From assembly GCF_054482595.1 (NCBI RefSeq), contig NZ_CM137008.1: DNA of 64,000 nucleotides, one strand, 5' to 3'. A program made the position numbers. This document shows, piece after piece, positions 61,301 through 64,000 of the stretch; position 1 is the stretch's first letter, and every line of letters begins with the position of its first letter.

Positions 61301-64000
61301 GCTTGCCTTCTTCAATGTAGTCACATCCCGTTAATGTGCAGAGAACTGAAACAGTGACAGCACTGAAAAAAATCTTCTTCAAGTTCATGTAAAAATCCTT
61401 ATTGCCTCCGACCAGCGATCAATGCCGGTAGAGTTGTCCATTGTATTATTGGTGATCTATGTTGCTTTACATTAATGACAGTGATGGGTGTCGATTAAAT
61501 ATTGTTTTAAGCATTCATCATAAAAATGTATCATTCGTTTCAAAAGATGTCTGTGTTTGTATGAATATATTATTTTTGTGGATTCTAAGGATGATTATTA
61601 ATAAATGTAAAACATGGAAGAAACCATATCTGGAAAAATTTTTACGGATAGTTGATTTTATGAATATGATGATTAAAATTTCACAATTAAATCCGAAAAA
61701 AGAGACGTAAATGCTTGTTAATTAACAAATGATAACTTCTATATATTTTTATTGTTTATAGGTTGCTATTTCGGTAAAAATATATTTTCAGAATATCAAC
61801 CAGCGGTAAATTGATGTAGAGGGAGTGGATTGTTCAGTAATTAGGCGAGCAGACAGGGGAGTCCCCGCATTGACCAGCTAACGCAAGCCAGATGCGGGTT
61901 GATACGATCGTACCAATCGTCTGAGGGGCTTAAAACGCAGTCTTAGAGAATCCAGTCATCTCTTCCAGGCCCATTTCGCGGCCCAGCGCGGTCATTGGGT
62001 GAACAACCACCAGTCCGCGAACACTTTTCTTCAGCTTGCCCATATCAGCCTGCTCTTTTTTGGTAATTGCGCGCTGAAACGGCATCTTCATCAGCTTCTG
62101 TGCTTCTTTACTCAGTTTCTGGCTGTGAACTTCACGCAGGCGGGCAATTTCTGCTTCCAGCGTGGCTTTCTCTTTTTCCAGCTCGGCATATTTGTCTGCG
62201 GCATCAACCAGCGACAGATCGGCCTGCTGGTGGCGGATGGCGTCCAGACGATCGCTGAGACGTTTGATTTCGTTTTTTTCGACTTCTTTCATGTGATGGC
62301 TTCTGATAAAGATAAATTTATAGCCCCTAGTATGCGCGACCAGGTGCTTTGTTCACAACTGATGACATTGCAATAGTTCCGCAACGTAATCATTAATATG
62401 CTTAAAAACTACGCAATTTATTGATTAATTAAGAAATCTATAGAAAAAAGATAATAAACAGAAGCGGATGATTATTGAGGATTCAGCACGTTTTCCTTAA
62501 TGTCATCTTTACCGGGAACCTAAACTAAAATTGGCGGCCGCGCATTCCCGGCGCGGGGTAATACGGAGATATCATCATGGGCAAATTAGGTGAAAACGTT
62601 CCGCTTCTTATCGATAAAGCCGTAGATTTCATGGCATCAAGCCAGGCGTTCCGGGAGTATCTGAAAAAACTTCCTCCCCGTAACGCGATTCCGTCCGGAA
62701 TACCCGATGAAAGCGTGCCGTTATATCTACAACGTCTGGAGTATTATCGTCGGCTTTATCGGCCGAAGCAGGTAGAGGGGCAGTAAGCAGACGTTGCTTA
62801 CTTTTGAAAGGCTTTTTTTAAGCTGATTTTGGAAATCAGCTCTGTCAGTGAAAGGACCATTGTTGATCGCACAGCCTGTTGATAGCGCTGAATTTGCATT
62901 GCATACAAACTGGAGTCTGCTGGTTCAAAAAGTGGCGGCGGTGGTAACGCCGCCACGCAGTGCAGTTCACCAAAGGGTCCAAGGATTTCGTCGTCGGTAA
63001 ACGCGTACTCGTTGCCGTCGTGATTTAGCTCTTCACGCAATGCCATCAGCAGTTCCGCATCTTCGTATTCCTGGCGGTTAATGACGCCCAACCCGTAAAT
63101 GAGTTTTAAACGCACAGAAAGATCGCCCAGCGGACCGTCGCCGTCGAGTAACGGTTCTACAGCATACTTCACCGCGTAATCGTCTTTGCGGAATACCTGA
63201 AGCACCAGAAGATTTACCGCCTCGGTCAAAAGCTCGACGGCGGTGATCAGAAAGCTTCGCACGGTTTTGCCAGCATTCAGACGCTCAAGCACACGGTTTT
63301 CAAAGGCCTGGGTTTGTTCCATTGTTGCCTGCATATCTGACAATCTGTTATTCGGGCGCAGGGTGTCCTGCGCCTGGTCCACCATTATTGCATTGCTTTA
63401 TAAGCGGTTACCGCCTCAGATACAACCTCGCTGTTGGCATCAAGACCGGAAATCTGTGCCAGCGCCGCCTGCGGACCTTTGTCAGCGATCAGTGCTGCCA
63501 GTTCCTGAGCCTGCGGATCATCTTCACTGCGGAAGTGCATTGCAGCGGCAATACCTTCAATCAGGTTTTTATGTGGCAGACCATATTCCAGCGTACCGAG
63601 CAGTGGCTTGATCAGACGGTCGCCTGCGCTCAGTTTACGCAGCGGCTGACGGCCTACGCGCTCTACATCATCTTTCAGATACGGGTTCTCAAAACGGCCG
63701 AGGATTTTCTGGATGTACGCCGCATGCTTGTCAGCGTCAAAGCCGTAACGCTTGATCAGTACCGCGCCACTTTCTTCCATCGCACCTTTTACCACCGCGC
63801 GGATTTTCTCGTCGAGAATAGCGTCACGAATGGTCTGATGACCGGCCAGTTTTCCGAGGTACGCGGTTATAGCATGACCCGTGTTCAGGGTGAAGAGTTT
63901 ACGTTCGACAAATGCCATCAGGTTGTCGGTTAACTCCATGCCTGGGATGTTCGGCAGTGCACCTTTGAACTGCGTTTTATCGACAATCCATTCGCTGAAG

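What the first reader, a model, noticed from the sequence alone, without database searches (positions are those of the whole stretch)
61389..61929. AT-rich 540-bp leader upstream of the lipoprotein-adhesin module
The spacer between yibL and the lipoprotein start is extremely AT-rich with long A/T tracts and no convincing ORF (one 83-aa ORF at 61459..61710 is low complexity). This composition is typical of H-NS-bound, horizontally acquired promoter regions of adhesin operons, suggesting the module, if functional, would be silenced under lab conditions. It may also mark one boundary of the insertion relative to K-12.
Basis: inference. Interest (0 to 1): 0.3.

Follow-up and report, generated by a model that had tools for sequence, protein, structure and literature searches.

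The report
Silent adhesin operon's AT-rich control region
This very AT-rich 541-bp stretch is the ancient promoter and leader region of a known E. coli/Salmonella adhesin operon (sadB lipoprotein plus EhaG/UpaG/SadA-type adhesin); K-12 lost it by deletion, and in this strain it sits in front of dead genes, so it is ordinary rather than new.

Summary
Window 61389..61929 is a 541-bp non-coding spacer with GC 0.34 (0.24 over 61480-61800), the most AT-rich 200-300 bp of the 64 kb.

It is the yibL-sadB intergenic region, the control region of the sadB plus trimeric-autotransporter operon (EhaG/UpaG in E. coli, SadBA in Salmonella).

The same gene order, with a 480-560 bp AT-rich spacer, occurs in Salmonella, E. 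fergusonii, E. marmotae and Pseudocitrobacter. Some allele of the operon is in 4149 of 5426 complete E. coli genomes. K-12 and 1262 others carry one shared 4.55-kb deletion that starts one base after the yibL stop. It is therefore not a strain-specific insertion.

Spacer classes are only about 40-45% identical, but three islands survive in all of them:
- a sigma-70 promoter (TTGACA-N17/18-TAnnAT), 172-232 nt upstream of the ATG;
- a Shine-Dalgarno sequence;
- a 10-bp motif (AWTCTGAAAA) of unknown role, about 180 bp upstream of the -35.

H-NS silencing is supported by the literature, not tested here.

In this strain the -35 is TTTACA, sadB carries Q37*, and the adhesin gene is in three pieces, so the region is probably a relic. 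Interest is low.

The parts
61930..62292 (-). yibL (YibL ribosome-associated protein), the conserved gene upstream. Species-level identity ends at its stop codon.
   Evidence: ORF; annotation; identity profile.
61864..61916 (-). GC-rich 3' flank of yibL with two adjacent hairpins (61899-61916 and 61864-61898). No T-run follows, so this is terminator-like at best. It contains a REP-like core, CCCGCATCTGGC.
   Evidence: Fold (z = -1.65, not significant). No intrinsic terminator found in this part of the spacer. Palindrome I4 and direct repeat D11. Every allele class has some hairpin-forming sequence at this position.
61785..61794 (-). Motif A (ATTCTGAAAA), a 10-bp block matching AWTCYGAAAW in 12 of 12 spacers from 5 otherwise unalignable classes. 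It lies 172-186 nt upstream of the -35. Role unknown; candidate distal operator.
   Evidence: A weaker version (ATTCCGAA) is present in LT2-type Salmonella.
61480..61800 (.). AT-rich core (GC 0.243), the presumed H-NS target.
   Evidence: H-NS binding is taken from the literature and was not measured here.
61627..61650 (.). 24-bp imperfect palindrome TATCCGTAAAAATTTTTCCAGATA, centred about -63 from the predicted start site. Found only in EhaG-type alleles.
   Evidence: I2; alignment.
61582..61611 (-). Conserved sigma-70 promoter. The -35 is TTTACA at 61606-61611 (TTGACA in 10 of the 12 other spacers read, TTGACC in LT2-type Salmonella; strain Combat11I9, identical to the window across the spacer, also has TTTACA). 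An 18-nt spacer follows, then the -10 TAGAAT at 61582-61587.
   Evidence: Best-scoring hit of the scan (10/12). Present in 12 of 12 spacers, 172-202 nt from the ATG, against 0.17 of 12 expected in shuffles. Top sense-strand hit in CFT073 (11/12) and in LT2-type Salmonella (10/12).
61389..61575 (-). Predicted 5' UTR of about 187 nt (start site inferred near 61575), AT-rich, with no significant or conserved fold.
   Evidence: Fold z = -0.72. RNAalifold on 7 UpaG-type leaders gives -7.5 kcal/mol with a covariation term of -0.16. Rfam finds nothing.
61396..61400 (-). Shine-Dalgarno AAGGA, ending 7 nt before the sadB ATG. A GGA-core Shine-Dalgarno (AAGGA or AGGGA) sits at this position in all classes.
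60705..61388 (-). sadB homologue (DUF3251/SadB-YajI inner-membrane lipoprotein). It is a pseudogene here: CAA to TAA at codon 37 (C to T at 61280).
   Evidence: The intact copy in L001 matches PDB 4C47 (SadB) at E = 2.4e-67. Annotation.
57445..60661 (-). EhaG/UpaG/SadA-type trimeric autotransporter adhesin gene, broken into three ORFs (59957-60661, 59148-59810, 57445-59151).
   Evidence: Pfam ESPR, YadA_head, YadA_stalk and YadA_anchor. Annotated as a pseudogene in L001.
57379..61928 (.). The 4550-bp segment missing in K-12, where 10 nt (AACACAGTAT) stand in its place. It contains all of the spacer except base 61929.
   Evidence: The K-12-type junction is contiguous in 1263 of 5426 genomes.
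61459..61710 (+). 83-aa ORF antisense to the operon. Not a gene.

Best explanation
The 541 bp are the yibL-sadB intergenic region, the cis-regulatory region of the two-gene operon sadB (trimeric inner-membrane lipoprotein, export helper) plus a trimeric autotransporter adhesin (EhaG/UpaG in E. coli, SadA in Salmonella).

Read on the minus strand it holds, in order:
1. A GC-rich hairpin-forming tail of yibL.
2. A 10-bp invariant motif of unknown function.
3. About 170 bp of very AT-rich DNA.
4. A conserved sigma-70 promoter (TTGACA-N18-TAGAAT type).
5. A leader of about 187 nt, AT-rich and unstructured, ending in an AAGGA Shine-Dalgarno sequence.

Shown here:
- the anatomy above;
- conservation of the promoter, the Shine-Dalgarno sequence and motif A across classes that are otherwise at background identity;
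- ancestral synteny;
- the deletion in K-12.

Inferred:
- RNA polymerase starts near 61575.
- The AT-rich DNA around and upstream of the promoter is coated by H-NS, keeping the operon silent in culture. It would be relieved by an antagonist (a PapB/TosR-like or other regulator, possibly acting through motif A).
- The operon alleles, spacer included, are exchanged between lineages by homologous recombination anchored in yibL and the lldP-proximal REP region.

In this particular strain the promoter has a G to T change in the -35, sadB has a nonsense codon and the adhesin gene is fragmented. The region is therefore most likely a decaying relic that no longer drives a functional product.
For: Identity of the flanking genes.

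AT-richness.

Ancestral synteny: a spacer of 480-560 bp with GC 0.30-0.36 is found in E. coli of three classes, Escherichia sp., E. marmotae, E. fergusonii, two Salmonella classes and Pseudocitrobacter.

Promoter:
- 12 of 12 spacers match TT[GT]ACA-N17/18-TAnnAT at 172-202 nt from the ATG, against 0.17 of 12 expected by chance.
- LT2-type Salmonella has TTGACC-N18-TATCAT at 232 nt.
- It is the top sense-strand hit in the window, CFT073 and LT2-type scans.

Background identity between classes is 36-46%.

K-12 deletion: and PMC3953254.

Silencing:
- PMC5012682 and PMC12525524 report H-NS repression and hns-deletion derepression of upaG.
- PMC5956150 reports c4423 at log2FC 5.1 on TosR overproduction.
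- PMC3212961 reports STM3690 down 4.2-fold in a fur mutant in which hns is up 3.1-fold.
- PMC3953254 reports no SadA in wild-type cultures.

Decay in this strain.

Allele replacement: the identity profile falls from 85-100% to 33-48% at the yibL stop, and sadB is 57-79% identical to both the UpaG-type and the Salmonella copy. The same pattern is seen inside Salmonella, with yibL 92.6% but the spacer 48% identical.
Against: - No transcription start site, H-NS binding or expression data were available for this allele. The primary paper on H-NS and ehaG/upaG (Totsika 2012) could not be read, so that step rests on secondary citations.
- Matches to the 10-bp H-NS high-affinity motif are only mildly enriched: 4 against 1.45 +/- 1.2 in shuffles.
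- The yibL-proximal hairpins are not a canonical terminator (no T-run; z = -1.65). Read-through from yibL therefore cannot be excluded as a second source of transcripts.
- The -35 variant TTTACA still matches 5 of 6, so calling it a down mutation is an inference.
Confidence: 0.8

Rival explanations
1. The AT-rich spacer is the edge of a horizontally acquired, strain-specific island inserted between yibL and lldP.
For: K-12 lacks the whole 4.55-kb segment. The spacer and sadB have low GC.
Against: - The module, with an AT-rich spacer of similar length (480-560 bp), is at the same site in Salmonella, E. fergusonii, E. marmotae and Pseudocitrobacter and in 4149 of 5426 E. coli genomes.
- The K-12 state is one shared junction in 1263 genomes and is described as a deletion in PMC3953254.
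- No tRNA is present and no repeats lie at the ends of the segment; no integrase or other mobility gene is annotated in the orthologous stretch of strain Combat11I9.
- The TAA gene itself has about 0.50-0.54 GC.
Confidence: 0.04
2. The leader is a structured cis-regulatory RNA (riboswitch, thermometer, or sRNA/CsrA-controlled 5' UTR) that governs translation of sadB.
For: - A 5' UTR of 172-232 nt is long, and its length is conserved.
- The UpaG-type leaders share a small hairpin that pairs AGGA with UCCU next to the ATG, and a conserved AAUCAUU/AAUGAUU stem.
- The window leader has two GGA motifs near the Shine-Dalgarno sequence.
Against: - No Rfam match even at E <= 1.
- The fold is no better than shuffles (z = -0.72).
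- The consensus fold is weak, with essentially no covariation (-7.46 kcal/mol, covariation term -0.16).
- The small hairpins are not shared between allele classes.
Confidence: 0.07
3. The spacer encodes a small protein (the 83-aa ORF at 61459..61710 on the plus strand, or another short ORF).
For: An ATG-initiated 83-codon ORF exists.
Against: - It is truncated to 52 aa in the 93%-identical O157 allele.
- No ORF is positionally conserved in any of the 12 spacers.
- It has no Pfam family.
- RefSeq annotates nothing here in 2268 genomes.
- Such an ORF is expected by chance in AT-rich DNA read antisense.
Confidence: 0.02
4. In this strain the region has no function at all. It is neutral DNA left upstream of a dead operon, and the conserved elements are only inherited.
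For: - sadB carries Q37*.
- The adhesin gene is in three ORFs and is annotated as a pseudogene in the closest genome.
- The -35 G to T change is shared by 46 genomes of this lineage.
Against: The spacer is 100% identical to that of strain Combat11I9, whose sadB is still intact. The -10, the Shine-Dalgarno sequence and motif A are untouched, so decay is recent. H-NS would still bind whatever the coding status. This view concerns present use, not what the element is, and is compatible with the best explanation.
Confidence: 0.5

Closest known systems
sadBA operon of Salmonella enterica (STM3690-STM3691) and its upstream region (Grin et al. 2014, PMC3953254)
   Same: - Same chromosomal site between the mtl and lld operons.
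- Same gene pair: a DUF3251/SadB lipoprotein (PDB 4C47, E = 2.4e-67) followed by an ESPR-YadA adhesin.
- An AT-rich spacer of about 490-530 bp.
- The same promoter architecture (TTGACC-N18-TATCAT in the LT2 type).
- Silent in culture.
   Different: - Outside the conserved islands the spacer sequence is at background identity (~40%).
- SadB is about 60-65% identical.
- The window copy is pseudogenised.
ehaG (EHEC) and upaG (UPEC) loci of E. coli, reported as H-NS repressed (Totsika et al. 2012, cited in PMC5012682 and PMC12525524)
   Same: The window carries an EhaG-type allele. Its spacer is 93% identical to the O157 spacer, and sadB plus the adhesin gene start are 96% identical.
   Different: - It belongs to a minor sub-allele: 47 of 2268 genomes are at >=99% identity.
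- The -35 is TTTACA instead of TTGACA.
- sadB has a nonsense codon and the adhesin gene is fragmented.
- Against the UpaG type, the spacer is 42% identical.
H-NS-silenced promoters of cryptic adhesin and fimbrial operons in E. coli (for example auf, yqi, yfc, F9, upaC, upaH)
   Same: - A very AT-rich upstream region.
- No expression in culture.
- Derepression together with these operons when TosR is overproduced (PMC5956150).
   Different: This one is not on an island. It is an ancestral core-position locus with deep allelic classes, and it keeps a near-consensus sigma-70 promoter.

Membership tests
yibL-sadB intergenic (control) region of the sadBA / ehaG / upaG operon | Lies between yibL and a SadB-family lipoprotein gene that is followed by a trimeric autotransporter gene, between the mtl and lld operons. 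| tested here: met
   The same order is seen.
yibL-sadB intergenic (control) region of the sadBA / ehaG / upaG operon | Sequence homology to the EhaG-type spacer. | tested here: met
   93% identical to the O157 spacer, and 2268 genomes match at 90-100%.
yibL-sadB intergenic (control) region of the sadBA / ehaG / upaG operon | A conserved sigma-70 promoter 170-230 nt upstream of the sadB ATG, plus a GGA-core Shine-Dalgarno sequence. | tested here: met
   Promoter activity itself was not measured.
H-NS-silenced promoter region | AT content far above the genome mean over several hundred bp, with A/T tracts and TpA steps. | tested here: met
H-NS-silenced promoter region | Physical H-NS binding (ChIP, EMSA or footprint). 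| not testable with these tools
   No data for this allele. High-affinity motif matches are only mildly enriched (4 against 1.45).
H-NS-silenced promoter region | Derepression in an hns mutant or by an H-NS antagonist. | not testable with these tools
   Literature only, and for other alleles: upaG, c4423 with TosR, STM3690 in a fur mutant.
Genomic island / insertion boundary | Absent from close outgroups at the same site. | tested here: not met
   Present in Salmonella, E. fergusonii, E. marmotae and Pseudocitrobacter.
Genomic island / insertion boundary | Mobility hallmarks: tRNA or att site, integrase or transposase, flanking direct repeats at the junctions. | tested here: not met
   No tRNA. 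No mobility gene is annotated in the orthologous stretch of strain Combat11I9. The only flanking repeat (D11) is REP-like and lies 26-59 nt away from the junctions.
Structured cis-regulatory RNA leader (Rfam family) | Match to a covariance model, or a significant or covarying fold. | tested here: not met
Small protein-coding gene | An ORF conserved in position and reading frame among alleles. | tested here: not met

The most novel reading that the evidence does not exclude
Motif A is the 10-bp block AWTCTGAAAA (core TTCnGAA). It matches AWTCYGAAAW in 12 of 12 spacers from five classes that are otherwise at background identity (nine carry AWTCTGAAAA exactly), is weaker in the sixth class (LT2-type Salmonella), and always lies about 150-185 bp upstream of the -35. 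It could be the binding site of an unidentified regulator, an anti-silencer or a looping partner, that switches on the cryptic sadBA/ehaG/upaG operon. The natural inducing conditions of that operon are still unknown.
Probability: 0.3. Interest if true: 0.4.

Novelty: already known. Interest (0 to 1): 0.15.

Why it matters
Little for this strain, because the operon behind the region is dead.

More generally, the comparison pins down where the promoter of the EhaG/UpaG/SadA adhesin operon most likely is. It also shows that the AT-rich spacer is an ancestral, conserved-architecture control region rather than foreign DNA.

It flags one invariant upstream motif that could help find the still unknown signal that turns this adhesin on in E. 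coli and Salmonella.

Finally, it illustrates that absence from K-12 plus low GC is not sufficient evidence of horizontal insertion.

Tried and rejected
- Rfam at a permissive threshold on the window region and on the Salmonella spacer: nothing in the spacer.
- RNA folding of the predicted leader and of the yibL 3' flank: not better than shuffles.
- RNAalifold on seven UpaG-type leaders: weak, with no covariation.
- BLAST (word 11) of the spacer against all E. coli genomes: it finds no UpaG-type spacers at all. They are only detectable by anchored MAFFT alignment.
- One genome-contig scan with a SadB alignment: only 8 loci, three of them probably mis-binned MAG contigs and none from Salmonella. 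Salmonella, E. fergusonii and E. marmotae loci were fetched by exact-protein look-up instead.
- Totsika 2012 and Valle 2008 could not be read. Searches for STM3691 plus H-NS found nothing.
- Motif A was checked by eye as a sigma-70 -10 or -35 in either orientation, as a sigma-54 site, as a sigma-E -10 (TCTGA, but no conserved GGAACTT), and as an FNR, CRP, IHF, Fis, Lrp, RcsAB, ArgR or marbox site. None fitted consistently across classes, so no assignment is made.
- Other copies of motif A in the window (3322 and 54430) were not informative.
- A repeat-mediated origin of the K-12 deletion: the REP-like direct repeat D11 is close to both ends but not at the junctions.
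Full report
**1. What is at the coordinates.** On the minus strand the window reads, in order:
- yibL (61930..62292);
- a 541-bp spacer (61389..61929);
- a lipoprotein gene (60705..61388);
- a trimeric autotransporter adhesin gene in three ORFs (57445..60661);
- lldP (55362..57044).

GC is 0.338 over the spacer and 0.243 over 61480-61800, against 0.498 for the window. The lowest-GC 200-bp and 300-bp windows of all 64 kb lie here. Tracts of eight or more A/T occur at 18.5 per kb against 4.1 per kb, and TpA steps are twice as frequent. The 130 bp next to yibL are GC-rich (~0.54).

**2. No gene and no known RNA.**
- The 83-aa ORF (61459..61710, plus strand) has no Pfam match.
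- It is cut to 52 aa in the 93%-identical O157 allele, and no ORF is conserved in position among 12 homologous spacers.
- RefSeq annotates nothing under the spacer in 2268 genomes.
- Rfam gives nothing at E <= 1.

**3. Identity of the module.**
- The closest genome (Combat11I9, spacer 100% identical) annotates the genes as a DUF3251 protein, an ESPR-type fragment and a YadA-like pseudogene.
- Its intact lipoprotein matches the crystal structure of Salmonella SadB (4C47) at E = 2.4e-67.
- The adhesin fragments carry ESPR, YadA_head, YadA_stalk and YadA_anchor domains.
- Other genomes name the adhesin EhaG or UpaG and the lipoprotein SadB/YajI family.

This is the sadBA-type operon described by Grin et al. 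2014 (PMC3953254), in which SadB helps surface display of the adhesin.

**4. Insertion or deletion?**
- K-12 shares sequence up to the base after the yibL stop (61929), then has 10 nt (AACACAGTAT), then resumes at window 57378 in the REP region before lldP. The K-12-absent segment is therefore 57379..61928, 4550 bp.
- In 5426 complete E. coli genomes the K-12 junction is contiguous in 1263. The sadB and adhesin start are present in 4149.
- The same order, mtlA-mtlD-mtlR-yibT-yibL-spacer-sadB-adhesin, occurs in two kinds of Salmonella enterica, E. fergusonii, E. marmotae, another Escherichia species and Pseudocitrobacter.
- Their spacers are 480-560 bp with GC 0.30-0.36.
- There is no tRNA and there are no junction repeats; no mobility gene is annotated in the orthologous stretch of strain Combat11I9.

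The locus is therefore ancestral and K-12 has a deletion, as Grin et al. state. AT-richness and length are conserved properties of the spacer, not a mark of recent import.

**5. Deep allele classes.**
- The window-type (EhaG-type) spacer is found in 2268 genomes: 47 at >=99% identity, 13 at 95-99%, and 2208 at 90-95%.
- Another 1875 genomes have sadB at only 60-80% identity (UpaG type and relatives). Their spacers give no BLAST hit at all.
- In a MAFFT alignment the classes are 36-46% identical to each other.
- A sliding profile shows 85-100% identity between the window and UpaG-type strains through mtlR, yibT and yibL. Identity falls to 33-48% at the yibL stop. sadB is 57-79% identical, the same as against Salmonella.
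- Salmonella shows the same pattern internally: yibL is 92.6% identical but the spacer only 48%.

The whole cassette has therefore been swapped by homologous recombination, with one breakpoint at the end of yibL. This is the grain of truth in 'horizontally acquired'.

**6. What survives the divergence.** Three islands are shared by the 12 spacers of five classes:
- A promoter, TT[GT]ACA-N17/18-TA[GA][AC]AT, ending 172-202 nt before the ATG. Shuffles give 0.17 of 12 by chance.
- A GGA-core Shine-Dalgarno sequence (AAGGA or AGGGA) just upstream of the ATG.
- Motif A, AWTCYGAAAW, 172-186 nt upstream of the -35.

LT2-type Salmonella, a sixth class, has TTGACC-N18-TATCAT 232 nt from its ATG and a weaker ATTCCGAA. 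The promoter is the best sense-strand hit of the consensus scan in the window (10/12), CFT073 (11/12) and the LT2 type (10/12).

In the window the elements are at these positions:
- -35 TTTACA at 61606-61611;
- -10 TAGAAT at 61582-61587;
- inferred start site near 61575;
- leader of about 187 nt;
- Shine-Dalgarno at 61396-61400;
- motif A at 61785-61794.

The leader has no significant fold (z = -0.72), and its UpaG-type relatives show no covariation. The yibL-proximal hairpins lack a T-run.

**7. How it most likely works.** The core promoter drives sadB and the adhesin. The AT-rich DNA around it is a target for H-NS, which keeps the operon off in culture.

This step is literature-based:
- H-NS represses upaG, and an hns deletion derepresses it (Totsika 2012, as cited in PMC5012682 and PMC12525524).
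- In CFT073 the sadB homologue c4423 rises log2FC 5.1, together with cryptic fimbrial operons, when the PapB-family regulator TosR is overproduced (PMC5956150). I verified that c4423 = C_RS20890 is the gene directly upstream of upaG.
- In S. Typhimurium STM3690 falls 4.2-fold in a fur mutant in which hns is up 3.1-fold, and it is listed as Fnr-regulated (PMC3212961).
- Wild-type Salmonella makes no detectable SadA in culture, and the native inducing conditions are unknown (PMC3953254).

I could not read the primary H-NS paper. H-NS motif matches are only mildly enriched.

**8. State in this strain.**
- The -35 reads TTTACA, where 10 of the 12 other spacers I read have TTGACA, LT2-type Salmonella has TTGACC, and strain Combat11I9 (identical spacer) also has TTTACA. 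The identical 81-nt promoter segment is in 46 genomes.
- sadB has CAA to TAA at codon 37 (61280), which the otherwise near-identical Combat11I9 copy lacks.
- The adhesin gene is fragmented here and in Combat11I9.

The region is thus best seen as a recently orphaned control region.

**9. Verdict.** The H-NS idea is plausible and literature-backed. The insertion idea is wrong, because K-12 carries the deletion.

The element is a known kind of thing at a known locus. The only unexplained item is motif A. Interest is low.

Noticed in passing
window 61785..61794 (minus strand); the same motif in L003, L004, L005, L007, L008, L009, L011, L013, L014, L017, L019: An invariant 10-bp motif, AWTCTGAAAA (core palindrome TTCnGAA), about 180 bp upstream of the conserved -35 in spacers that are otherwise at background identity. 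No transcription factor could be assigned.
   Followed up: partly
L004 3377..3385 (E. coli O157 strain NZRM4169): The O157 sadB copy has TAG at codon 3 (MN*KK) and is annotated from a start 15 nt downstream. The export helper of EhaG may be impaired or re-initiated in this strain.
   Followed up: no
L014 3475..4000 compared with L022 2514..3000: Salmonella enterica itself carries two deeply different cassettes. One is the LT2/4C47-type SadB. The other is a P0027-type SadB, roughly 60% identical to it as judged by eye from the printed alignment. The spacers are 48% identical although yibL is 92.6% identical, so the allele polymorphism crosses species.
   Followed up: partly
window 57320..57335 and 61887..61902: A REP-like direct repeat, GCCAGATGCGG(C/G)(G/T)TGA, lies near but not at the two ends of the K-12-absent segment. 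The yibL-proximal hairpin of the EhaG-type spacer looks like a degenerate REP.
   Followed up: partly
window 57191..57350: A REP/BIME pair between the adhesin gene and lldP gives sub-threshold Rfam hits to STnc380 (33.5 bits) and naRNA4 (29.6 bits). This part is retained in K-12.
   Followed up: no
window 61627..61650: A 24-bp imperfect palindrome, TATCCGTAAAAATTTTTCCAGATA, centred about -63 from the predicted start site. It is present only in EhaG-type alleles.
   Followed up: no
L006, L010, L011: Metagenome-assembled genomes labelled Bacillota, Oscillospiraceae and Collinsella contain contigs with Escherichia-type sadB (L010 and L011 also hold the yibL-sadB spacer). These are probably mis-binned E. 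coli contigs.
   Followed up: no
window 60528..60724: The 5' end of the adhesin gene (ESPR signal peptide) stays 84-91% identical to the E. coli and E. marmotae alleles compared. Against the Salmonella copy it is 88% over 60625-60724 and 70% over 60528-60624. The flanking sadB and passenger regions are 48-79% identical. It is a conserved island inside the swapped cassette.
   Followed up: no
window 33300..38900: The only other stretch of the window as AT-rich as the spacer (GC below 0.36 over several kb).
   Followed up: no
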